A stretch of 64,000 bases of DNA from a virus (IMGVR_UViG_3300029798_000001); one strand, 5' to 3'; shown: positions 27,143 to 64,000, numbered from the stretch's first letter. Notes: generated from the letters alone by a model not told the origin. Made by a program: numbers and translations.

Positions 27143-29293
27143 ATGAGTTTTGTAGATGCACTTTTTGATCGTGAACACGATCGTATCCATGTAGTTGAGC
27201 GCCGAGACGGTGAGCGGGTATACAAAGAATACCCTGCAAATTTTGTATTCTATTATGAAGACCCTCGTGGCAAGTTTCAAAGTATATTTGGCACACCGGT
27301 AAGTCGTTTTAGCTCACGTAACAATAAAGAATTCCGCAAAGAACTTAGGATACAATCAGGCAAGAAATTATTTGAATCTGATATCAATCCTGTATTTCGG
27401 TGCCTTGAAGAAAACTACAAAGGGCAAGACGGTCCAAAACTTAATGTAGCGTTCTTTGACATTGAGGTGGACTTTGATCCTGAGCGCGGATTTAGCCGCC
27501 CAGAGGATCCATTTAATGCTATCACTGCCATTTCAGTTTACCTACAGTGGTTAGAGCAAATGGTCACCTTGGTAATTCCACCTAAGCATATGAGCAAAGA
27601 AACAGCTCAAGAAATTGCCAACGAGTTTGAAAACACAATCATATTCACTGAAGAAGGAGAACTGTTAAAAACATTCCTAGACTTAATCGAAGATGCAGAT
27701 GCATTGTCGGGTTGGAACTCAGAAGGATTTGATATACCGTACACTGTCAACCGTGTAACTCGTATACTAAGTAAAGATGATACCCGCAGGTTTTGCTTAT
27801 GGAATCAATATCCCAAGAAGCGTACATTTGAACGCTTTGGTGCAGAAAACGAAACTTACGATTTGATTGGTCGTGTACATATGGATTATATGCAATTGTA
27901 TCGAAAATATACATATGAAGAACGCCATAGTTACAGTTTAGATGCCATTGCTGAATATGAACTACAAGAAACTAAAACAGTGTTCGAAGGCACACTGGAT
28001 CAATTATACAATCAAAACTTTAAAACATTTATTGAGTATAATCGACAAGATACAATGATTCTTGCCAAGTTAGATAAGAAACTAAAATTTTTAGATCTAG
28101 CCAACACCTTGGCACATGAAAATACTGTGCTATTGCAAACTACTATGGGTGCCGTGGCTGTGACAGAACAGGCCATTATCAATGAGGCACACGAGCGTAG
28201 TATGGTTGTTCCTAATCGTAAGGAACGCTATTCGGATGAAGATACACAAGCGGCCGGTGCCTATGTTGCTTATCCACGCAAGGGTATACATGAGTATGTA
28301 GGATCAATTGATATTAACTCACTATATCCAAGTGCTATTCGTGCGCTTAATATGGGTCCAGAAACTATTGTGGGGCAACTCCGTCCTACAATGACCGATC
28401 GTTATATTGCCGATAAGATGCGTAGTGGAAGTAGTTTTGCCGCAGCGTGGGAAGGCCTGTTTGGATCATTAGAATATGAAGCTGTAATGGCCAGTGAGCG
28501 CGGCACAGAGATTACAGTAGATTGGCAAGGTGGTGAAGATTCTGTACACAGTGCGGCAGAAGTTTGGAAGATGATTTTTGATTCTAACCAACCATGGATG
28601 CTTAGTGCCAACGGTACAATCTTTACCTATGAAAAAGAAGCAATTATTCCGGGATTGTTAAAACGCTGGTACGCCGAGCGGAAAGAAATGCAGTCCAAAC
28701 TTAAAGAATGTAAAAATGCAGAAGACGAAGAATATTGGGATAAACGACAACTCGTTAAAAAGATTAACCTTAACAGTCTCTATGGTGCTATCCTTAACCC
28801 TGGTTGCCGCTTTTTTGATAAGCGCATTGGACAATCTACCACACTAACCGGTCGTGCTATCGCCAAGCACATGGACGCCTATGTAAATGAATGTATCACT
28901 GGCAAGTATGACCATGTAGGCGAATCAATTATTTACGGTGACAGTGTAACCGGCAATACTCTTATTAAGACTGATTCTGGAGAAATAGCTATTGAAGAAT
29001 TATTTAGACAGACTCCTGAACATTGTATTATTGGTGACAAGGAATATGCTACTGGAGCATTGGCCAAAGTTGTGGGATTTAATGCGTATGAAGATTCTCC
29101 TATAATGAGCAATATATCGTACGTAATGCGACACAAAACAAAAAAGAAACTGTACAAAATTACGCTAGAAAATAATAAGTCAGTCACTGTAACCGAAGAT
29201 CATAGTATAATGGTAGATCGTGACGGATTCCTAATGGAAGTAAAACCCAATGACATCTTGGGTAAAGATTTAATTATCAGTCTGAATACATAA
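27143..29293 (+). CDS. Family B DNA polymerase N-terminal half fused to split-intein N-fragment
   Basis: Exonuclease DIE and YNxxxFD-type motifs, SIDINSLYPS, KINLNSLYG, then IYGD followed by intein SVTG...TEDH; TATAAATA at 27060; RBS AAGGAG. Confidence 0.95.
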   Translation: MSFVDALFDREHDRIHVVERRDGERVYKEYPANFVFYYEDPRGKFQSIFGTPVSRFSSRNNKEFRKELRIQSGKKLFESDINPVFRCLEENYKGQDGPKLNVAFFDIEVDFDPERGFSRPEDPFNAITAISVYLQWLEQMVTLVIPPKHMSKETAQEIANEFENTIIFTEEGELLKTFLDLIEDADALSGWNSEGFDIPYTVNRVTRILSKDDTRRFCLWNQYPKKRTFERFGAENETYDLIGRVHMDYMQLYRKYTYEERHSYSLDAIAEYELQETKTVFEGTLDQLYNQNFKTFIEYNRQDTMILAKLDKKLKFLDLANTLAHENTVLLQTTMGAVAVTEQAIINEAHERSMVVPNRKERYSDEDTQAAGAYVAYPRKGIHEYVGSIDINSLYPSAIRALNMGPETIVGQLRPTMTDRYIADKMRSGSSFAAAWEGLFGSLEYEAVMASERGTEITVDWQGGEDSVHSAAEVWKMIFDSNQPWMLSANGTIFTYEKEAIIPGLLKRWYAERKEMQSKLKECKNAEDEEYWDKRQLVKKINLNSLYGAILNPGCRFFDKRIGQSTTLTGRAIAKHMDAYVNECITGKYDHVGESIIYGDSVTGNTLIKTDSGEIAIEELFRQTPEHCIIGDKEYATGALAKVVGFNAYEDSPIMSNISYVMRHKTKKKLYKITLENNKSVTVTEDHSIMVDRDGFLMEVKPNDILGKDLIISLNT
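28943..29293 (+). mobile_element. Split intein N-fragment (116 aa, Ser1)
   Basis: Starts after YGD with SVTGNTLI; block B VTEDHS; ends at a stop codon. Confidence 0.9.
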
Positions 29294-29320: not shown

Positions 29321-30280
29321 ATGCCAACATGTTTAGAGTGCGGGTATTCAGCCCCAAGATTACAGTGGACACACTTCAAATACAAATGTACCGGAAAATT
29401 CAAAAACGGTAATGAGTATATGTCCGCACACCCCGGTAGTGAGATAATAGATCCAGAATTAAAGAAAAAATACGGGTTTACACTTGACTCGGCTGTCAAA
29501 AAGTATGGTGCTGTGGAAGGTCAAAAACGATGGAATGAGTATTGTGATGCGCAGGCAACCACTAATACTTTTGAATACAAACATGAAAAATACGGTTGGA
29601 CCCGTGAACAGTTTGACGAGTACAATTCATCAAGAGCAGTAACCATTGCAAACATGATCAAACGACATGGTGAAGAAATTGGAGTTGCTAAATGGCAAGA
29701 ATATTGCGAACGACAAGGATATACCAATACCAAAGAATATTTTATTGAAAAGTACGGTGCAATCATTGGCGTTAAAAAATATATTGAGGTTAACAAGAAA
29801 AAGAAAAACCCACACGACCCGGTGAGTATTTCTGAAAAATTAGGAATTACCTTGGACGAGGCGGTAGACATTATCTTGTCGAGAGAAAATTCTGGAAGAA
29901 GATATATTAGTAATCTTGAAGAAGAATTTACAAACATGCTTGAAGATAAAGTAGGACCACTTGACTATACCTCAGCTAAACGACCATTTGGCAAATGGTC
30001 TCATTTATTGAATACCTATGTTGTATATGATATAAAACACGGCAATTGCATTATTGAATTCAATGGTGATTACTGGCATGCTAATCCCAACATTTATGCT
30101 GGCACCGCTACAATAAGAGGTGTCCCGGCGGTTGATATATGGCGCCAGAATGTGTTAAAATTACAAACAGCACAGGATTTGGAATTCAAAACCCTAGTGG
30201 TTTGGGAAACAGAATTTCGAAATGATAAAGTTGGAACAATTAATAAGGTAGCAGAATGGATATTACAAGAACAACCGTAA
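29321..30280 (+). mobile_element. Free-standing Vsr-like/PD-(D/E)xK homing endonuclease between the polymerase halves
   Basis: N-terminal CxxC...H zinc finger, repeated KYG..G..(R/K)W.EY units, C-terminal IEFNGDYWH and VVWE; TAAATA at 29291; RBS AGGAG. Confidence 0.85.
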
Positions 30281-30381
30281 AAAGTATTGATTGTCTCGGT
30301 GAGGTGGATGACTATGTGTATGATCTCAGTATAGAAGATCAAGATCCTTATTTTTTTGCCAATGACATATTGGTGCATAAT
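30256..30381 (+). mobile_element. Split intein C-fragment (42 aa, ends HN, +1 = Thr)
   Basis: Block F VYDLSI and block G HN. Confidence 0.9.
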
Positions 30382-31239
30382 ACCGACTCGTGTTATTTCA
30401 CTGCATACCCTGTGTTGCAAAAAGAAATCGAAGCTGGTACAATGTCTTGGTCGAAAGAAATTGCGGTACAATTATATAACTCTATTGCCGACCAAGTTAA
30501 TGATAGCTTTCCAGGATTTATGGAACAAGCATTTCATGTACCTAGAGAAATGGGCGAAGTGATCAAAGGTGGGCGAGAGATTGTCGCAAGTAAAGGGCTG
30601 TTTATTACCAAGAAGCGGTATGCTGTATTGTATTATGATAAAGAAAATAAGCGTGTAGATACCCACGGTAGTCCTGGTAAAGTAAAAGCCATGGGCCTTG
30701 ATTTAAAAAGATCAGATACTCCCAAGGTTATTCAAGAATTTTTAAGCGAGATTCTCGACGAGGTACTCACAGGCTCCACCAGAGATCAGGTTATTGAAAA
30801 GATCCGCGAATTTAAGTATATTTTTAAAGAGAGGCCGGGTTGGGAGAAGGGTAGTCCTAAGCGTGTAAACAACTTAACCAAATATGGTAAGGAAGAAGAA
30901 AGATTAGGCAAAGCCAATATGCCAGGACATGTCCGTGCTGCACTTAATTGGAATAATCTTCGCAGGATGAATGGCGACAAATATAGTTTACAGATTGTTG
31001 ATGGCATGAAAACAATTGTATGTAAACTAAAATCTAATCCACTTGGCTGGACTAGCATTGGTTACCCTACTGACGAAACACATTTGCCACAATGGTTTAA
31101 AGAGTTGCCGTTTGATGACACCGAAATGGAAGCCACTGTAGTTGATCAAAAGCTAGACAATTTATTAAGTGTATTAGAATGGGACTTGGCCAGTGCTACT
31201 AACACTAAAAATATTTTTCAAACATTGTTCGAGTGGTAA
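30256..31239 (+). CDS. Split-intein C-fragment fused to DNA polymerase B C-terminal half
   Basis: VYDLSI...ILVHN then TDS completes YGDTDS; KKRYA motif downstream. Confidence 0.95.
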   Translation: MDITRTTVKSIDCLGEVDDYVYDLSIEDQDPYFFANDILVHNTDSCYFTAYPVLQKEIEAGTMSWSKEIAVQLYNSIADQVNDSFPGFMEQAFHVPREMGEVIKGGREIVASKGLFITKKRYAVLYYDKENKRVDTHGSPGKVKAMGLDLKRSDTPKVIQEFLSEILDEVLTGSTRDQVIEKIREFKYIFKERPGWEKGSPKRVNNLTKYGKEEERLGKANMPGHVRAALNWNNLRRMNGDKYSLQIVDGMKTIVCKLKSNPLGWTSIGYPTDETHLPQWFKELPFDDTEMEATVVDQKLDNLLSVLEWDLASATNTKNIFQTLFEW

Positions 31240-55578: not shown

Positions 55579-56279
55579 TTCTATTTGTAAATGGCGACAG
55601 TCATACCGCAGCGGCCGAAGCAGTTAATCCTCATGCCTTTGCCATGGACGATGGTGCTTTATTTTATCTAGGTCGTAGTCCACACCCTGATAATTTATCG
55701 GTTAGTTGGGGGAAATTATTAAGTCTAGCATTACACAGTGGGTTTCATTGTGCCGCAGAAAGTGCCAGCTCAAATGCTAGAATCTTAAGAACTACTCGTG
55801 CTTGGGTAGCAGAACATAAAAATAATCTACAAGATATTTTAATTGTTATACAATGGTCTACTTGGGAACGAGAAGAATGGGAATACAATGGTATTACCTA
55901 TCAAGTTAACGGTAGTGGCATTGACCATATTCCGCAGGAATTGCAAGAGAAATATAAACAATATATTATCGGAATAGACTGGCATCAAAAGACCCAAGAA
56001 GCGCATAATCAAATTTGGGAATTCCACCAAGAACTAATAGTCCAAAATATACCTCATATATTCTTTAATGGTAACAATGATTTTTCATCCATTACAGATC
56101 AAAAGGAATGGGGCAATAACTATATCGGCCCATACGATCCAGCCAGTACATACGATGCTCAAATTCGTAATGCTGGATTTGAAACTGTAGCCCCCAATTC
56201 ATGCCATTTTGGTAAAGATGCCCATGCATGGTGGTTTAAATATATCCTTAATTACATTATCAAACATAAGTTTATTTGA
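55575..56279 (+). CDS. SGNH-hydrolase-like protein
   Basis: NGDSHT, SN..I and a late D..H-like motif. Confidence 0.55.
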   Translation: MILFVNGDSHTAAAEAVNPHAFAMDDGALFYLGRSPHPDNLSVSWGKLLSLALHSGFHCAAESASSNARILRTTRAWVAEHKNNLQDILIVIQWSTWEREEWEYNGITYQVNGSGIDHIPQELQEKYKQYIIGIDWHQKTQEAHNQIWEFHQELIVQNIPHIFFNGNNDFSSITDQKEWGNNYIGPYDPASTYDAQIRNAGFETVAPNSCHFGKDAHAWWFKYILNYIIKHKFI

Positions 56280-56304
56280 CAAAGTCAGTAGAATCTGTTA
56301 TACT
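56276..56304 (+). promoter_or_regulatory. sigma70 promoter
   Basis: TTGACA-17-TATACT. Confidence 0.8.
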
Positions 56305-56310
56305 AGTATT

Positions 56311-59331: not shown

Positions 59332-59499
59332 GTGGAACAGCAAAAGAAACCCGTTAACCAGTATTACTATTCCGAAAAAGAATGGGCAAGATTGGGTTGT
59401 GGCCCGTTGCCCGACGAGCGTGATCGTTCTAAATTACTAGATGCTCATGCAAAAGGTAATCCAAAGGTTGACAATAATATAGTAAAAGGATATAATTAA
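59332..59499 (+). CDS. Small hypothetical protein
   Basis: 55-aa GTG-start ORF read manually; TAAATA at 59319. Confidence 0.45.
   Translation: MEQQKKPVNQYYYSEKEWARLGCGPLPDERDRSKLLDAHAKGNPKVDNNIVKGYN
59468..59496 (+). promoter_or_regulatory. sigma70 promoter (perfect consensus) upstream of cspA
   Basis: TTGACA-17-TATAAT. Confidence 0.85.
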
Positions 59500-59618
59500 C
59501 GATCATGATATGGTTAGCTATTTTTATTATCGGCGCTGTTGCAATGTATTTGTTAATTGAGCTAAAAGATTGGCTCGACAATGATCAGTAGTTAAAATTT
59601 AAAAGGAAGTATAGTAAA

Positions 59619-59822
59619 ATGGCATTTGGTAAAGTAAAATGGTTTAACGACGCAAAAGGTTTTGGTTTTATTACCCCCGATGGTGGTGGTGAAGATTTGT
59701 TTGCACATTTCTCAGCAATCGGTGGAAGTGGATTTAAAACTCTTAAAGAGAATCAAGCGGTACAGTTTGATGTAACGCAAGGCCCAAAAGGCAAACAAGC
59801 ATCGAATATTATACCTGCGTAA
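59619..59822 (+). CDS. cspA: Cold-shock protein
   Basis: [15 protein letters not shown] (RNP1) and LFAHFSAI (RNP2). Confidence 0.97.
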
Positions 59823-59919
59823 GCTGGTACTAACAGAATTGTTGTAACGTGGGCGCAGGGGTTAAATCCTGCGGACCATTTAGGTTGATTTTTAATTCGT
59901 TTTCTGCTACAATAGTAGT

Positions 59920-60531
59920 ATGAGAGTAAAGAATTTTGAGGTCGATTTAGATTCTGTAGAAGATTGCCAAAAGCTAATTAATCGACTTAAAAGTAATATA
60001 GGCGAACTTCGAATATTAACACACGGCTCTAAAAAGCAAAGAGTCCGTTCTGTATTTGAAGCTTGTCAAAAGATATACAATACCGATATCAGCGACTTGT
60101 ATCGTCATTTAGATTTGGATCCAAACCCGATTTATTATGTCTATACACATTCGGAACCTTCTAAAAAGATTGCTATAGGCAAAAACGGTATCAGTACTTT
60201 TGCGGCGACATTAGGAATGGAGTTAATTCCGTTCTATGTAGGCAAGGGTGTTGGCGATAGAGCTTACGATTTAAACCGCAACGAGACGCATCGTAAAGTA
60301 AGACAAAAACTTCAGCAGTTCGGGCAGGAAGTATCTGTTAAAATATTAAAATCTGGACTTACTGAGATGGGAGCATTAATATTAGAATCTAAATTAATCG
60401 ATATGTTCGGACTAATAGCTTCGGGCGGTAAATTAGTAAATTTGGACGAAGGTGTAAATAGTAAAGAACGACGCTTAAAATATAAAGACGAGCTTCGTGA
60501 GATAAGTATGTTATATAAGAATTCTGTCTGA
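59920..60531 (+). mobile_element. GIY-YIG nuclease adjacent to the tmRNA gene
   Basis: YYVY...PFYVGKG.G.RA...ALILE..LI...LVN; promoter TTGATT-17-TACAAT at 59885-59913. Confidence 0.75.
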
Positions 60532-60870
60532 AGTTAGACTGAAAGCTATGCAAGACGCGGAGTGGTGCCCGCCACCTCCACCACAAGCATACTGTGATGC
60601 GTTACCCAGCGTGAAGTTAAGAGGGTGAAAACAGTATGCTTTTGATGGGGGTGTATAATCCTTTCGATTGTGTAGGAAGTAAGAATAATTAGGAATCGGT
60701 AGGCGATGACCGTATAAATCAAGCAAATCTCGTAAATGCAAACGCAAATACAGGCGAAGTAACTGTTTCGGGCAAGGGCGTTAAGTTCTCTGCTCGTACA
60801 GCGAAAGCCGAATCTTTCGCAGTTTAATCACCGCGATTGCGGAGTTATCCGTAGAAACAGAAAATAACAG
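60520..60870 (+). ncRNA. ssrA: Circularly permuted two-piece tmRNA (outer ends approximate)
   Basis: Acceptor piece ...GACGCGG-AGTGGTGC-CCGC-CACCTCC-A-CCA (to 60583) precedes the coding piece GGGGGTG (60647); G3.U70 pair; CTATGCAA/TTGTGTAG helix; resume context TAAAT|GCAAAC; tag ORF 60738-60827. Confidence 0.85.
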
Positions 60871-60896
60871 ATAGGGGCTTCGGCCCCTATTCTTTT
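60871..60896 (+). terminator. Intrinsic terminator after the tmRNA
   Basis: ATAGGGGC-TTCG-GCCCCTAT followed by TCTTTT. Confidence 0.85.
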
Positions 60897-60927
60897 GACA
60901 AAATAATACAAAAATAAGACTTTTCTA

Positions 60928-60956
60928 TTGCTCTGCAACGACAAATACTATATACT
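60928..60956 (+). promoter_or_regulatory. sigma70-like promoter for glnK-amtB
   Basis: TTGCTC-17-TATACT. Confidence 0.6.
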
Positions 60957-60983
60957 AGTAGTATTAATCACGAAAGGCATATT

Positions 60984-61322
60984 ATGAAATTAATCACAGC
61001 AGTAATCAAGCCCTTTAAACTAGACGAAGTTCGAGAAGGTCTAGCCGAGGTTGGCATCACTGGGTTAACTGTAACAGAAGTCAAAGGCGTTGGGCGGCAA
61101 AAAGGCCATACCGAGTTGTATCGCGGTGCTGAGTATGTAGTAGATTTTTTACCCAAGGTTAAAGTCGAAGCAATCGTTGAGGAGGGCTTAGTTGATCGTG
61201 CTATTGAGGCCATTATCAAATCTTCCAAGACCGGTAAAATTGGTGACGGTAAGATTTGGGTTACCGCAATTGAAGGCCTGGTTCGTATTCGTACAGGTGA
61301 ATCTGGAAAGGATGCAGTATAA
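60984..61322 (+). CDS. glnK: P-II nitrogen regulatory protein
   Basis: 112 aa; KPFKLDEV, RQKGHTELYRGAEY (Tyr51), TGKIGDGKI and RIRTGE; directly upstream of amtB. Confidence 0.97.
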   Translation: MKLITAVIKPFKLDEVREGLAEVGITGLTVTEVKGVGRQKGHTELYRGAEYVVDFLPKVKVEAIVEEGLVDRAIEAIIKSSKTGKIGDGKIWVTAIEGLVRIRTGESGKDAV

Positions 61323-62698
61323 TGAAAAAATTACTAACAGCATTAGCATTGTTCGCAGTATCGGCAGTGGCATTGGCCGCAGATGCTCCGGTGCCTAACC
61401 CGGGTAATACCGCTTGGGTATTGACTAGTACAATCTTAGTAACACTCATGGCTATTCCAGGCCTTGCATTGTTCTATGGTGGACTAGTTCGTAGTAAAAA
61501 TATGTTGAGTGTGCTCATGCAGACCTTTGTAGTATTTGCTCTCATGGGTGTTCTTTGGACGGTGTTTGGTTACACACTAGCATTTACAGCAGGTACACCA
61601 TTTATTGGTAGTATTGACAAGTTGTTCTTGTTGGGTATTACTCCGGACTCTGTAGCGGCAACATTTAGTAAAGGTGTTGTTATTCCTGAGTTTAGTTTTG
61701 TAGCCTTTCAACTTACCTTTGCCGCAATCACTCCGGCACTGATTATTGGTGCGTTTGCCGAGCGTGTTAAGTTTGGCGCCTTGTTGGCATTTATTACCAT
61801 TTGGTTTATCTTTGCTTACTTGCCCATGGCACACATGGTTTGGTATTGGGACGGCCCTGATGCTATTACCAGTGCCGCCACATTAGAAGCAGTCACTAAT
61901 TCAGCAGGCTGGTTGTGGGCCAAGGGTGCTTTAGACTTTGCCGGAGGTACAGTAGTTCATATCAATGCTGGTATTGCTGGCTTGGTTGGTGCTATCATGT
62001 TAGGCCGTCGTGTTGGTCTTGGTAAAGAAAATATGAGTCCACACTCATTGACACTTACTATGGTTGGTGCCGCATTGTTGTGGGTAGGTTGGTTTGGCTT
62101 CAACGCTGGATCTAATCTCGAAGCCACAGGTGTTGCTGCTCTTGCAGTTGTAAACACAATGGTTGCCACAGCAATGGCTGTATTAAGTTGGTCTGGAGTT
62201 GAGAAGTTGTTCAAAGGTAAAGCAAGTATGTTAGGGGCCGCATCTGGTGCTGTAGCAGGCTTGGTTGCGATTACTCCTGCTGCTGGTTTTGTAGGACCGA
62301 TTGGTGCGTTAGTAATTGGGTTGGTTGTTAGTCCGATTTGTTTTTTCTTTGTTGACAAAGTTAAACGCACATTTGGGTACGATGACGCACTTGATGTATT
62401 TGGTATTCACGGTGTAGGTGGTATTGTTGGTGCTATCCTCACTGGAGTGTTTGTTGCTCCATACCTAGGTGGTACTGGTGTATACGACTATGTGGCCAAC
62501 AAGGTAGCAGACTTCGATATGGTGGCTCAACTTACAGCTCAATTATGGGCAGTGGGTACAGCCGTAGTGTTAAGCGGTGTAGTATCCGTAGTAGCATTCA
62601 AGTTAATTGACCTAGTCATTGGCCTGCGTGTTCCAGAAGAAGATGAACGAGAAGGGTTGGACATCACTTCACACGGTGAAACAGCGTATCACAATTAA
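61322..62698 (+). CDS. amtB: Ammonium transporter
   Basis: Signal peptide; FQLTFA, HMVW, DFAGGTVVH, WFGFNAGS, DVFGIHG and EREGLD...HGE. Confidence 0.97.
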   Translation: MKKLLTALALFAVSAVALAADAPVPNPGNTAWVLTSTILVTLMAIPGLALFYGGLVRSKNMLSVLMQTFVVFALMGVLWTVFGYTLAFTAGTPFIGSIDKLFLLGITPDSVAATFSKGVVIPEFSFVAFQLTFAAITPALIIGAFAERVKFGALLAFITIWFIFAYLPMAHMVWYWDGPDAITSAATLEAVTNSAGWLWAKGALDFAGGTVVHINAGIAGLVGAIMLGRRVGLGKENMSPHSLTLTMVGAALLWVGWFGFNAGSNLEATGVAALAVVNTMVATAMAVLSWSGVEKLFKGKASMLGAASGAVAGLVAITPAAGFVGPIGALVIGLVVSPICFFFVDKVKRTFGYDDALDVFGIHGVGGIVGAILTGVFVAPYLGGTGVYDYVANKVADFDMVAQLTAQLWAVGTAVVLSGVVSVVAFKLIDLVIGLRVPEEDEREGLDITSHGETAYHN

Positions 62699-62711
62699 AG
62701 TAGTCGTTAAT

Positions 62712-62745
62712 GATAAAAAGGTGGCATTTCTGCCACCTTTTTATC
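62712..62745. terminator. Bidirectional terminator-like hairpin
   Basis: 15-bp perfect stem GATAAAAAGGTGGCA-TTTC-TGCCACCTTTTTATC. Confidence 0.85.
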
Positions 62746-62820
62746 GTGGGTCAGTAAAAACCACTAAATATTATTCACGGGACATATATCTATGCCCTAT
62801 CTTAAAAGGAAATAAATCAA

Positions 62821-63564
62821 ATGAAAAAAGTACTATTAGCAATTCTTGCTCTGGCTGGCATTACCGCGGCTCACGCTCAGGTAACTGGCAATTTAGGGTT
62901 AGCTTCTGACTACCGCTTCCGTGGTATCAGTCAAAGCCAAAATGCTCCTGCTGTTCAGGGCGGCGTTGACTATGCTCACTCTAGTGGTTTGTATATTGGT
63001 AACTGGAACTCATCAGTTTCTAGCCAAGTATATACAAATGGCGCTGGTGTTGAGTCTGACTTGTACGCAGGTTGGAAAAAAGATATTTACAAAGGTCTGA
63101 CATTGGATGTTGGTTCTTATAACTATTTCTATCCTCGTGCTACAGCAGCAAAAACTGGTTCAAACTTTGATACTTATGAAGCATTCTTAGGTTTAGGGTA
63201 TGGTCCTTTAGCTGTTAAGTATAGCCAAACACTGGGCAACGGTTACTTCGGTACTGTTAATGCCAAAAACTCAAACTACACAGGTGCTGATGTAAATCAA
63301 TCCTTTGAGCCACTAAGTGATACGTTGAAAGACTTGAGCTTCCTAGCTCACTATGGTCATACTTCGGTTGCTAATAGTTCTAACTTAAACTACAACGACA
63401 TGAATGTTGGTCTAGGTTATGTATTGCCAAAAGATTGGAATATTGCTGCCAGGTACTATACTAATAGTTCAATGACCAGCACTTTCCAAAATGCTAACAA
63501 TGTAAATGGACAGAAACTTTACAAAAATGCAGTTGTCGCAACATTGACAAAAACATTTGAATAA
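62821..63564 (+). CDS. TorF-family (TIGR02001-like) outer-membrane porin
   Basis: Signal peptide, SDYRFRGISQS...PAVQGGVDY, GNWNSSV, ESDLYAG and terminal TKTF; TAAATA at 62765. Confidence 0.85.
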   Translation: MKKVLLAILALAGITAAHAQVTGNLGLASDYRFRGISQSQNAPAVQGGVDYAHSSGLYIGNWNSSVSSQVYTNGAGVESDLYAGWKKDIYKGLTLDVGSYNYFYPRATAAKTGSNFDTYEAFLGLGYGPLAVKYSQTLGNGYFGTVNAKNSNYTGADVNQSFEPLSDTLKDLSFLAHYGHTSVANSSNLNYNDMNVGLGYVLPKDWNIAARYYTNSSMTSTFQNANNVNGQKLYKNAVVATLTKTFE

Positions 63565-63579
63565 TTATTCAATGTAACC

Positions 63580-63606
63580 AAAAAGGGCTCTTCGGAGCCT
63601 TTTTTT
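63580..63606 (+). terminator. Intrinsic terminator
   Basis: GGCTC-TTCG-GAGCC core stem followed by a T-run. Confidence 0.85.
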
Positions 63607-63614
63607 ACGGCTGG

Positions 63615-63643
63615 TTGACCTTATACACTAACTAGTATATACT
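63615..63643 (+). promoter_or_regulatory. sigma70 promoter
   Basis: TTGACC-17-TATACT. Confidence 0.7.
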
Positions 63644-63714
63644 GAGCACTTAGTTAAAAATATTTTAGGAAATTAGCAAATATAGGGGTTGACAAAGTAT
63701 AAATAACCCTACAT

Positions 63715-64000
63715 ATGAAACGAGCAATAATTCTAGGATGTAGTCACGCAGCCGGTACCGAAATAGATAATGGCCGTACCTGTAGTTACCCAGTTAAAAT
63801 TGCAGAACAGCTAGGATACACTCCGGAAAATTATGCCATTGCCGGTGGCAGTAATGATGCGATGTTTCGCATATATGAAGAACAACACCCAAGTCTTGAT
63901 AGTGCTGATATAATTATAGCCTGTTGGTCTGGCTACAATCGTACAGAGATTTGGAATGATAAAATCAAAAACTGGCAAGCTCTTGCTCCCGGTAAAACAG
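63715..64000 (+). CDS. SGNH-hydrolase-like protein, 3' partial
   Basis: ILGCSHAAG, GGSND and WSGYNR; TATAAATA at 63698. Confidence 0.6.
   Translation, partial: MKRAIILGCSHAAGTEIDNGRTCSYPVKIAEQLGYTPENYAIAGGSNDAMFRIYEEQHPSLDSADIIIACWSGYNRTEIWNDKIKNWQALAPGKT

What the first reader, a model, noticed from the sequence alone, without database searches (positions are those of the whole stretch)
60928..63606. Complete ammonium-acquisition module (GlnK, AmtB, TorF porin) rewired to phage control
Seen: AmtB keeps the Phe gate, Trp/Ser site, both pore His and the C-tail. GlnK keeps Tyr51 but reads GVGRQKG where P-II proteins normally have GFGRQKG. The porin follows amtB behind a strong hairpin with its own TAAATA. 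The operon has a sigma70-type promoter and I see no sigma54 -24/-12 motif. Established: proteobacterial glnK-amtB is normally NtrC/sigma54-controlled and often preceded by this porin. Inference: nitrogen-status-independent ammonium uptake across both membranes, with a possibly altered P-II brake.
Basis: partly seen in the sequence, partly recalled or inferred. Interest (0 to 1): 0.7.

Follow-up and report, generated by a model that had tools for sequence, protein, structure and literature searches.

The report
Phage ammonium-uptake cassette beside resident porin
An uncultured 246-kb lake phage carries intact bacterial genes for an ammonium channel and its regulator, stripped of their nitrogen-starvation promoter and inserted as a self-contained unit next to an outer-membrane pore gene that many related phages carry alone; this kind of viral nutrient-uptake cargo is already known from marine viruses.

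Summary
glnK (60984-61322), amtB (61322-62698) and a TorF/Gcw_chp porin (62821-63564) are intact, lie in a freshwater jumbo phage, and are not contamination: many independent assemblies and diverged relatives share both junctions.

The "complete module" is composite. glnK-amtB is a 1.85-kb promoter-to-terminator cassette (about 60902-62753). It is missing from syntenic relatives, where the tmRNA terminator runs straight into the porin promoter. All 35 viral contigs found with the porin lack glnK/amtB. Phage AmtBs form one clade next to Methylophilaceae, while the porin has a separate history inside a phage-only clade.

The rewiring is supported. A sigma-54 -24/-12 element precedes 34 of 41 close bacterial operons and none of 8 phage loci. 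The phage copies have a conserved -10-like 14-mer instead.

GlnK V36 is a real allele but a segregating one. The sister strain and most other lake samples read Phe. GlnK keeps Y51, R47 and the rest of the T-loop, so the post-translational brake probably remains.

Marine viral glnK-amtB-porin contigs were published in 2021 (PMC8115048), so this is a new member of a known kind. The scan has already noted a stand-alone phage TorF porin on other DNA. No expression data exist.

The parts
60520..60827 (+). Permuted (two-piece) tmRNA gene; left neighbour of the cassette and conserved anchor in relatives
   Evidence: Rfam RF04321, 60.7 bits against a gathering score of 47. Its 3' part aligns to the cassette-less relatives L104-L115.
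60869..60892 (+). Terminator hairpin after the tmRNA, followed by a T-run
   Evidence: Folds at -15.6 kcal/mol. The stem shows compensatory changes among relatives: GGGGC/GCCCC, GGGAC/GTCCC, GGAGC/GCTCC.
60902..62753 (+). glnK-amtB cassette: a promoter-to-terminator unit (moron) that is present or absent among related phages
   Evidence: Relatives L104-L115 join window ~60884 to ~62750 with about 60 unrelated nt between. One contig in run X6 joins 60901 to 62754, skipping 1852 nt, and run X19 has loose ends at 60900 and 62754.
60928..60961 (+). Predicted sigma70-type promoter: TTGCTC (60928-33), 17 nt, TATACT (60951-56), inside the invariant 14-mer CTATATACTAGTAG (60948-61)
   Evidence: The 14-mer is invariant in 7 phage loci while the flanks vary. 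The same TATACTAGTA -10 with a TTGACA -35 stands before the 5'-3' exonuclease gene near 56270-56306, and TTGACC-17-TATACT stands at 63615-63643. It is a prediction only; no TSS data exist.
60984..61322 (+). glnK (P-II, 112 aa), with Y51, R47 and V36
   Evidence: PF00543. 3e-52 to Herbaspirillum PII 1HWU. dN/dS 0.06-0.13 among phage copies. Its stop overlaps the amtB start (ATGA).
61089..61091 (+). Codon 36, GTT (Val): a segregating allele where relatives have TTT/TTC (Phe)
   Evidence: GTT is in 9 independent assemblies. T at 61089 is the only allele in runs X10 and X19 and the commoner one in X5 and X6.
61322..62698 (+). amtB (458 aa): signal peptide, all pore residues and the C-terminal regulatory tail
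   Evidence: PF00909 and TIGR00836. Aligned to E. coli AmtB. Residue census. dN/dS 0.08. One phage clade, sister to Methylotenera.
62710..62747 (+). Terminator hairpin closing the cassette: GGTGGCA-TTTC-TGCCACC extended by A/T tracts
   Evidence: -25 kcal/mol, z = -7.3, 0 of 200 shuffles fold as well. Also listed by the terminator scan.
62761..62772 (+). Porin's own promoter-like element CCACTAAATATT, a variant of the T4-type late box TATAAATA
   Evidence: [C/A]TAAATA is invariant in 8 cassette-less relatives plus the window, about 50 nt before the ATG. CTAAATA occurs 13 times on the + strand and 6 on the - strand, several copies just upstream of genes. Its function is inferred.
62821..63564 (+). 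TorF/Gcw_chp-family outer-membrane porin (247 aa): signal peptide and a 12-strand beta-barrel
   Evidence: PF09694 and TIGR02001. AF2 model with pLDDT 89.8 and 12 strands. Best TM-scores to NanC/KdgM. Lies in a phage-only clade with support 99. dN/dS 0.09-0.14.
63574..63608 (+). Terminator hairpin after the porin
   Evidence: -14.6 kcal/mol, z = -3.5, followed by a T-run.

Best explanation
The window belongs to an uncultured freshwater jumbo phage of about 246.5 kb, distantly T4/PA5oct-like. glnK-amtB is an auxiliary metabolic 'moron', a self-contained unit of promoter, two translationally coupled genes and terminator. The phage lineage captured it once from a Methylophilaceae-like betaproteobacterium. 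It lost the NtrC/sigma-54 promoter and the Ala/Pro/Glu-rich N-terminal linker of AmtB, and it now moves among related phage genomes by recombination. In this strain it sits between the phage tmRNA gene and a resident phage gene for a 12-strand TorF-family outer-membrane barrel, which is transcribed from its own conserved CTAAATA-type element. Inferred mechanism: during infection the host RNA polymerase, with sigma70 or a phage-modified form, transcribes glnK-amtB whatever the Ntr status. Extra AmtB trimers enter the inner membrane and raise ammonium capture for phage nucleotide and protein synthesis. Phage GlnK is made in step with AmtB, can still be read by host GlnD, ATP/ADP and 2-oxoglutarate, and plugs the channel when nitrogen is sufficient. 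The porin probably eases ammonium passage through the outer membrane, as its operon partnership in bacteria suggests, but it is an older and independent phage gene. Shown here: gene integrity, phage location, the indel, loss of sigma-54, purifying selection and the phylogenies. Inferred: promoter use, timing, transport activity, the GlnK brake, porin substrate and host.
For: Phage location: 13 contigs carry the exact GlnK, and 6 of the 9 fetched are 100% identical to the window; L092 runs from 57984 to the window's end at 64000, across the whole cassette, the porin and both junctions. Diverged relatives keep GIY-YIG, tmRNA, glnK, amtB and porin in order. The source contig is 246,537 nt. The window also holds phage DNA polymerase, endolysin and Clp-type protease genes. 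Indel. Single capture: 20 phage-type AmtBs form one clade (SH-aLRT 99) next to the Methylotenera clade, and the best cellular identity is 74-77%. Separate porin history: 39 phage porins form one clade (99) with the amtB-linked ones scattered in it. The window porin is 88% identical to stand-alone porins but 62% to the L006 porin, whose AmtB is 87% identical. Window versus L093: 3 mismatches across about 3.2 kb (59400-62600, including glnK-amtB), then 102 mismatches in about 800 nt over the porin. Function retained: pore residues conserved 20/20 and dN/dS 0.06-0.14. Rewiring: sigma-54 element in 34/41 bacterial loci, 0/8 phage loci, background 5.8%. Conserved -10 14-mer and covarying terminator. 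Published precedent: PMC8115048.
Against: There are no RNA data, so the promoters, their timing and expression itself are untested (one search lists no RNA holder). The -35 hexamer is weak (3/6) and poorly conserved, so an activator or a phage factor may be needed. The host is inferred only from the AmtB sister clade and GC content. The porin occurs without amtB in most relatives, so its link to ammonium is circumstantial. Loss of the cassette from many lineages, instead of gain, is not excluded. The trees are quick searches with SH-aLRT support only, because the careful search did not finish.
Confidence: 0.72

Rival explanations
1. The porin has nothing to do with ammonium in the phage. It would be a general outer-membrane channel or a surface protein, for example for nutrient leak-in, receptor masking or superinfection exclusion. 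glnK-amtB would lie beside it only because the tmRNA/tRNA region is a hot spot for inserted cargo.
For: 35 of 35 viral porin loci lack glnK/amtB within 6 kb. Stand-alone copies lie in different neighbourhoods on 296-kb and 355-kb contigs. The porin allele is swapped between strains that are otherwise nearly identical, as is common for exposed surface proteins. In the window the porin has its own promoter element and terminator. An earlier scan note (e1-5362615) describes a similar stand-alone porin cassette in a marine jumbo phage.
Against: In all three phage architectures glnK-amtB directly abuts the porin: the window type, the L006 type with a 14-nt gap and no terminator, and lineage B with porin-glnK-amtB. 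In bacteria the same family is the first gene of the sigma-54 operon in 27 of the 41 close loci. Marine viruses pair a different porin family with glnK-amtB (PMC8115048).
Confidence: 0.3
2. The main payload is GlnK acting as a signalling decoy. Phage-made P-II would flood the host's nitrogen-signalling network (NtrB, ATase, other P-II targets) to reprogramme nitrogen metabolism. AmtB would serve mainly as its membrane sink or sensor.
For: The GlnK T-loop differs from bacterial P-II proteins, which can interact with many targets, only at position 36. P-II-only viral AMGs exist in marine viromes (10.1101/053090).
Against: In every phage locus seen here glnK is followed directly by amtB, overlapping by one base in lineage A (ATGA) and by four in lineage B. 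AmtB is under equally strong purifying selection and keeps all pore residues. No glnK-only relative of this cassette was found.
Confidence: 0.1
3. The Val36 form of GlnK is an adaptive change that weakens or alters the P-II brake.
For: Position 36 is aromatic (F or Y) in all 78 related sequences that cover it. Phe36-Gly41 contributes to the 2-oxoglutarate/ATP pocket at the T-loop base in a modelling study of Synechococcus PII (PMC4282546). The allele is real: it is in 9 assemblies and at least 2 strain backgrounds.
Against: All V36 copies share one identical glnK nucleotide sequence, two bases from the F36 sister, so the allele is young. Phe is the only allele in 2 and the commoner allele in the other 2 of the 4 other studies' runs laid. 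Every other phage lineage keeps Phe. This pattern fits a neutral or mildly deleterious polymorphism that hitch-hikes in one strain.
Confidence: 0.1
4. The region is host DNA joined to phage DNA by misassembly or contamination.
For: The three genes are of bacterial type, and GenBank 'phage' records that hold amtB are mostly contaminated or unannotated fragments.
Against: The junctions recur in independent assemblies from JGI, ENA and Logan and in relatives at 78-91% DNA identity. Phage AmtBs form their own clade with trimmed N-termini. GC content, 0.41-0.42, is close to the window's range. Phage-type promoter and terminator elements flank the genes.
Confidence: 0.01

Closest known systems
Marine viral glnK-amtB-ompL contigs (P-II-1 group; Gazitua et al., ISME J 2021, PMC8115048; first seen in Roux et al. 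2016, bioRxiv 10.1101/053090)
   Same: These are viral contigs with glnK followed by amtB and a porin gene immediately downstream. They have a predicted promoter before glnK and a terminator after amtB, keep Y51, and are interpreted as boosting or regulating ammonium uptake during infection.
   Different: Those are marine, derived from Flavobacteriales, on 13-35-kb contigs, with an OmpL-like porin said to have been taken together with the other two genes. Here the phage is a freshwater jumbo phage, the source is Methylophilaceae-like, and the porin is of the TorF/Gcw_chp family. The porin is an older resident phage gene with a separate history, and the cassette is a present/absent polymorphism.
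Betaproteobacterial porin-glnK-amtB operons under NtrC/sigma-54, e.g. nlmA-glnK-amtB of Herbaspirillum seropedicae (PMC3023670)
   Same: The same three protein families are involved. GlnK hits Herbaspirillum PII (1HWU) at 3e-52, the best solved-structure match. The AmtB pore, the periplasmic loop and the C-tail are the same.
   Different: In bacteria the order is porin-glnK-amtB, with a sigma-54 -24/-12 promoter in 34/41 loci and a spacer of about 200 nt between glnK and amtB (judged coordinates). The phage has glnK-amtB overlapping, the porin downstream on its own signals, no sigma-54 element and a shortened AmtB N-terminus. I did not test whether NlmA itself is a Gcw_chp protein.
Host-derived Amt transporter of Ostreococcus tauri virus RT-2011 (Monier et al. 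2017, as cited in PMC8115048)
   Same: It is a virus-encoded ammonium transporter of host origin, reported to raise nitrogen uptake in infected cells.
   Different: It belongs to a eukaryotic algal virus, has no P-II partner and no porin. My knowledge of it comes only through the citing paper.
Phage 'morons' (independent promoter-gene-terminator units inserted between neighbouring phage genes; concept of Hendrix and colleagues, from my own knowledge)
   Same: The unit is flanked by its own promoter-like element and a strong terminator, and it lies between two genes that are adjacent in related phages.
   Different: It carries two translationally coupled genes. The empty site has about 60 nt of unrelated sequence, so the event is a replacement and not a clean insertion.
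KdgM/NanC family of small 12-strand monomeric porins (PDB 2WJQ, 4FQE)
   Same: The predicted fold is a 12-strand barrel of about 225 mature residues, with TM-score 0.55-0.59 by query and 0.65-0.81 by target.
   Different: Sequence identity is only 9-12% and it is a different Pfam family. Those porins pass acidic sugars. No TorF-family structure or substrate came up in my searches.

Membership tests
Amt/AmtB ammonium channel (PF00909, TIGR00836) | Profile match above the curated cut-off over the full length | tested here: met
   PF00909 scores 374 bits against a cut-off of 23.2. TIGR00836 scores 411 against 343. The E. coli-specific equivalog NF007947 scores 463, below its cut-off of 657, as expected for a betaproteobacterial-type protein.
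Amt/AmtB ammonium channel (PF00909, TIGR00836) | Recruitment site (W148, S219), Phe gate (F107, F215), twin His (H168, H318), D160 and the C-terminal regulatory region | tested here: met
   All are present in the window and in 20/20 phage homologs. The C-tail reads GLRVPEEDEREGLDITSHGETAYHN.
Amt/AmtB ammonium channel (PF00909, TIGR00836) | Transport of ammonium or methylammonium | not testable with these tools
   This needs an uptake assay or complementation.
P-II / GlnK | P-II profile and the T-loop with Y51 (uridylylation site) and R47 (pore plug) | tested here: met
   PF00543 scores 101.6 bits. Y51 and R47 are present and residues 37-55 are identical to most betaproteobacterial GlnKs.
P-II / GlnK | GlnK subtype defined by linkage to amtB | tested here: met
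   The glnK stop overlaps the amtB start, and the linkage holds in all phage and bacterial relatives examined. Both NCBIfam equivalogs (GlnB-type 171 bits, GlnK-type 154 bits) are below their cut-offs, so sequence alone does not decide the subtype.
P-II / GlnK | Aromatic residue at position 36 (GFGRQKG / GYGRQKG) | tested here: not met
   The window has V36. 61 related sequences have F and 17 have Y, none V. It is a segregating allele. This is a conserved feature and not a formal criterion of the family.
TorF / Gcw_chp putative porin (PF09694, TIGR02001) | Profile match above the cut-off, a signal peptide, and a beta-barrel with a C-terminal aromatic residue | tested here: met
   PF09694 scores 157.5 bits against 24, and TIGR02001 scores 141 against 47. 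The signal peptide is MKKVLLAILALAGITAAHA|Q. The model is a 12-strand barrel with pLDDT 89.8. F246 is conserved, with one extra C-terminal residue.
TorF / Gcw_chp putative porin (PF09694, TIGR02001) | Channel activity and substrate | not testable with these tools
   My literature searches turned up no characterised member. The link to ammonium rests on operon context only.
Viral auxiliary metabolic gene / moron | Located inside a bona fide viral genome with viral genes on both sides | tested here: met
   The source contig is 246.5 kb. Phage genes lie on both sides. Relatives are IMG/VR viral contigs.
Viral auxiliary metabolic gene / moron | Own promoter and terminator; the flanking genes are adjacent in related phages | tested here: met
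   Conserved -10 14-mer and a -25 kcal/mol terminator. Empty-site relatives and a joint in reads. Promoter activity itself is untested.
Viral auxiliary metabolic gene / moron | Expression during infection | not testable with these tools
   No RNA holder is listed for this stretch.
NtrC/sigma-54-controlled glnK-amtB operon | A -24/-12 element (TGGCAC-N5-TTGCW) upstream of the first gene | tested here: not met
   0 of 8 phage loci have one, against 34 of 41 close bacterial loci; background is 92 of 1600 random 300-nt windows.

The most novel reading that the evidence does not exclude
TorF/Gcw_chp barrels are dedicated outer-membrane ammonium channels. On this reading, freshwater jumbo phages that already carried such a porin added the inner-membrane channel and its regulator next to it, arriving at three different gene orders. 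That would rebuild, under phage promoters, a two-membrane ammonium pathway that bacteria run from one sigma-54 operon. The phage data would then be independent evolutionary evidence for the function of an uncharacterised porin family. The cassette's present/absent polymorphism within single lakes would mark ongoing selection by nitrogen supply.
Probability: 0.25. Interest if true: 0.6.

Novelty: new member of a known kind. Interest (0 to 1): 0.4.

Why it matters
The finding extends virus-encoded ammonium uptake (glnK-amtB plus a porin) from marine Bacteroidetes viruses to freshwater jumbo phages of probable methylotroph hosts.

It adds three things that the published cases do not show. First, there is direct comparative evidence that the nitrogen-starvation (sigma-54) promoter was lost on capture. 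Second, the inner-membrane pair is a mobile promoter-to-terminator cassette that is present or absent among co-occurring strains. Third, the porin is a separate, older and far more widespread phage gene. Cassette-carrying and cassette-less phages in the same lakes form a natural experiment for asking whether nitrogen supply selects for viral nutrient-uptake genes.

The repeated pairing with a TorF-family barrel also gives a testable lead on the substrate of a large uncharacterised porin family. The GlnK Phe-to-Val change, which looked striking in one sequence, turns out to be a minor segregating allele.

Tried and rejected
1. Whole-genome search of the window's own assembly: no genome is held.
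2. Megablast of 59500-64000 against GenBank phages: no match. tblastn with AmtB and with the porin against the same collection found only matches of 50% identity or less, in records that look like bacterial contigs or unannotated fragments filed as phage.
3. Expression and TSS: no RNA holder is listed for the stretch. All runs laid were DNA contigs, so nothing can be said on transcription.
4. Sequencing error as the cause of V36: rejected.
5. Host contamination or misassembly: rejected.
6. A sigma-54 element in the phage loci: sought and not found. The raw 3-mismatch scan of the whole window was too permissive to be informative.
7. A T4 MotA-box reading of the -35 region (TATTGCTCT): considered. 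The TGC is not conserved in L006-type relatives, so I do not claim it.
8. The careful maximum-likelihood search for the porin tree did not finish in the time allowed. Quick IQ-TREE trees with SH-aLRT support were used.
9. Complex prediction for GlnK-AmtB was not run. It is a textbook pair that would pass by likeness to 2NUU/2NS1 and would not discriminate F36 from V36.
10. Literature search for freshwater phage amtB, or for a characterised TorF porin in ammonium uptake: nothing specific found.
Full report
**What is there.**
Three + strand ORFs occupy the stated interval.
- glnK lies at 60984-61322 (112 aa).
- amtB lies at 61322-62698 (458 aa). Its ATG overlaps the glnK stop.
- A 247-aa ORF lies at 62821-63564.

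They match P-II (PF00543, 3.5e-29), Ammonium_transp (PF00909, 9e-112; TIGR00836 above cut-off) and Gcw_chp (PF09694, 7e-46; TIGR02001 'TorF family putative porin').

Against E. coli AmtB, the window protein keeps F107, W148, D160, H168, W212, F215, S219 and H318 and the C-terminal GLRVPEE..EREGLD..SHGE region. So do all 20 phage-type homologs I aligned.

GlnK has Y51 and R47, and its T-loop is otherwise identical to that of most betaproteobacterial GlnKs. It reads V at position 36, where 61 related sequences have F and 17 have Y.

The porin has a signal peptide. It gives a confident AlphaFold model (pLDDT 89.8, pTM 0.83) of a 12-strand barrel. Its best TM-scores are to the small monomeric porins NanC and KdgM.

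The hairpin after amtB is strong: 17 bp, -25 kcal/mol, z = -7.3.

**It is phage DNA, not contamination.**
- No cellular genome is held for the window.
- The window is a one-strand array of phage genes: a split family-B DNA polymerase, endolysin, Clp-type protease, 5'-3' exonuclease, MazG-like protein, CspA, a tRNA and a permuted tmRNA.
- The exact proteins occur on a 246,537-nt contig.
- The closest cultured phages by DNA polymerase are PA5oct-like and other jumbo myophages, at about 50% identity.
- The exact GlnK sequence is on 13 contigs from JGI, ENA and Logan. Of the 9 fetched, 6 are 100% identical to the window. One of them (L092) runs from 57984 to the window's end at 64000, across both junctions of the cassette and the porin.
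- Relatives at 91%, about 80% and about 78% DNA identity keep the same order: GIY-YIG-like ORF, tmRNA, terminator, glnK, amtB.
- The DNA is held by freshwater and lake metagenomes of 11 studies.

**The module is composite.**
A scan of viral contigs with the porin returned 35 loci at 49-88% identity. None has glnK or amtB within 6 kb. Other stand-alone copies lie on 296-kb and 355-kb contigs.

Several of the 35 loci (L104-L106, L108-L111, L114, L115) are syntenic with the window from about 55 kb onward. Their alignment runs through the 3' part of the tmRNA to about window 60884. It resumes at about window 62750, with only about 60 unrelated bases between.

Laying contigs of four other studies' runs on the region gave two further results:
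- One contig joins 60901 directly to 62754, skipping 1852 nt.
- Loose ends at 60900 and 62754 read like the spacer of the empty-site relatives.

So glnK-amtB, with its promoter-like region and its terminator, is a 1.85-kb present/absent unit. It lies between the tmRNA gene and a porin gene that is resident in this phage group.

The porin's upstream element, CCACTAAATATT at 62761-62772, is invariant in cassette-less relatives. It resembles the T4-type late box TATAAATA. An exact TATAAATA stands before the next gene, at 63698-63705.

**The two parts have different histories.**
- *AmtB.* In a quick ML tree all 20 phage-type AmtBs form one clade (SH-aLRT 99). This covers the 458-aa 'lineage A' and the 438-aa 'lineage B'. 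The clade lies next to the Methylotenera/Methylophilaceae sequences. The best cellular identities are 74-77%.
- *Porin.* The 39 phage porins form a phage-only clade (99) separated by a long branch from the bacterial glnK-linked porins. The four amtB-linked porins are scattered within it.
- *Mismatch in identity.* The window porin is 88% identical to stand-alone porins. It is only 62% identical to the porin of L006, whose AmtB is 87% identical to the window's.
- *Allele swap.* Between the window and strain L093 there are 3 mismatches across about 3.2 kb (59400-62600, including glnK-amtB). A patch of about 800 nt over the end of amtB and most of the porin has 102.

Three architectures exist:
- the window type: P-glnK-amtB-T, then P-porin-T;
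- the L006 type: amtB followed after 14 nt by the porin's ribosome-binding region, with no terminator;
- lineage B, on a 226-kb contig: small lipoprotein, porin, glnK, amtB, behind a TTGCAA-17-TAGTAT promoter-like site.

The simplest reading is one capture of glnK-amtB from a Methylophilaceae-like host, followed by spread and rearrangement by recombination beside an older phage porin. Repeated loss of the cassette is not excluded.

**Rewiring.**
I searched 300 nt upstream of the first operon gene for TGGCAC-N5-TTGCW, requiring the GG and GC cores and at least 9 of 11 matches.
- Among bacterial loci whose AmtB is at least 62% identical, 34 of 41 have such a site. The closest Methylotenera MAG is one of them.
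- Random 300-nt windows from the same loci have one in 5.8% of cases.
- None of 7 distinct phage loci nor the window has one.

In lineage A phages the upstream region has two conserved parts:
- a tmRNA terminator whose stem shows compensatory changes;
- the invariant 14-mer CTATATACTAGTAG, which contains TATACT. A weak -35, TTGCTC, lies 17 nt upstream.

The same TATACTAGTA -10, this time with a consensus TTGACA -35, precedes the 5'-3' exonuclease gene. Loss of Ntr control of transcription is therefore well supported. The identity, strength and timing of the phage promoters remain predictions.

The phage AmtBs are also streamlined. Cellular relatives carry a signal peptide plus an Ala/Pro/Glu-rich linker of about 45 residues. 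Lineage A keeps only the signal peptide, and lineage B starts directly at the first helix.

**Function is maintained.**
Pairwise dN/dS among phage copies is 0.06-0.13 for glnK, about 0.08 for amtB and 0.09-0.14 for the porin, at dS of about 0.6-1.6. With the conserved pore and T-loop residues, this argues for active proteins.

GlnK is retained, translationally coupled to amtB and unchanged in its signalling residues. I therefore infer that the host GlnD / 2-oxoglutarate / ATP-ADP system can still close the phage channel. 'Nitrogen-status-independent' applies at most to transcription.

**The Val36 allele.**
- GTT is present in nine independently assembled contigs and in at least two strain backgrounds, so it is not an error.
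- All V36 copies share one identical glnK nucleotide sequence. The sister strain L003 differs by that base and one synonymous change and encodes Phe. Every other phage lineage encodes Phe.
- In runs from four other studies, T at 61089 is the only allele in two and the commoner allele in the other two.
- Phe36-Gly41 lines the effector pocket at the base of the T-loop in a modelling study of Synechococcus PII (PMC4282546), so an effect on signalling is possible.

The population pattern fits a young, minor polymorphism and not a designed change of the brake.

**Comparison with what is known.**
Roux et al. 2016 (10.1101/053090) reported viral P-II genes next to amt.

Gazitua et al. 2021 (PMC8115048) described marine viral contigs with glnK, amtB and an OmpL-like porin immediately downstream. 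They predicted a promoter before glnK and a terminator after amtB, attributed the genes to capture from Flavobacteriales, and made the same functional proposal.

The bacterial counterpart is the NtrC-dependent nlmA-glnK-amtB type of operon (PMC3023670).

The present case is a new member of that kind. It comes from a different biome, phage group and probable host, and it has a different porin family. It adds the indel, the separate histories and the sigma-54 comparison.

Earlier notes of this scan had already recorded:
- a stand-alone, mobile TorF porin cassette in a marine jumbo phage (e1-5362615);
- the two-piece tmRNA upstream (e1-5380891).

My own results agree with both.

**Limits.**
- No RNA data were available.
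- The trees are quick searches rooted at the midpoint.
- The host is inferred only from the AmtB sister clade.
- The porin's substrate is unknown.

Noticed in passing
window 60520-60827 (tag reading frame about 60738-60827): A permuted two-piece tmRNA (RF04321, 60.7 bits) lies directly upstream of the cassette. It has an unusually long predicted tag that ends ...SFAV. Its terminator stem covaries among relatives. Earlier scan notes already cover it.
   Followed up: partly
window 62600-63400 versus L093 4600-5400: The porin allele is swapped between two strains that are otherwise almost identical: 102 mismatches in about 800 nt, against 3 in the preceding 3.2 kb. This suggests frequent recombination or diversifying selection on this surface protein.
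   Followed up: partly
L093 1-1327 and L095 1-1331: Strains 97% identical to the window around glnK carry DctP (TRAP) and TctC (tripartite tricarboxylate) substrate-binding protein genes upstream of the CspA gene, where the window has other small ORFs. This is further transporter-related cargo that varies between strains.
   Followed up: no
L009 6666-6911 (lineage B, 226-kb contig): An 81-aa ORF with a lipoprotein signal (…LIQGC) directly precedes porin-glnK-amtB and appears to share their promoter-like site. It may be a fourth member of that version of the unit.
   Followed up: no
window 61322-61400; P0025, P0045, P0056 N-termini: Phage AmtBs have lost the Ala/Pro/Glu-rich periplasmic linker that follows the signal peptide in Methylotenera AmtBs. 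Lineage B has lost the signal peptide as well.
   Followed up: partly
window 27143-29293, 29321-30280, 30256-31239: The family-B DNA polymerase is split into two ORFs, with a 319-aa ORF of unknown function (phrog_22677) between them.
   Followed up: no
window 63561-63564 and alignment A3: Many phage porins end ...TKTFE or ...TKTFN, with one residue after the conserved C-terminal Phe. The aligned bacterial fragments stop at that Phe, but they were cut at the end of the tblastn match, so their true ends were not examined. Any effect on outer-membrane assembly is unknown.
   Followed up: no
window 63615-63705: Downstream of the porin terminator there is a TTGACC-17-TATACT site and then an exact T4-type late box, TATAAATA, 9 nt before the ATG of the next ORF (63715...). 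Early-type and late-type signals appear to be stacked before one gene.
   Followed up: no
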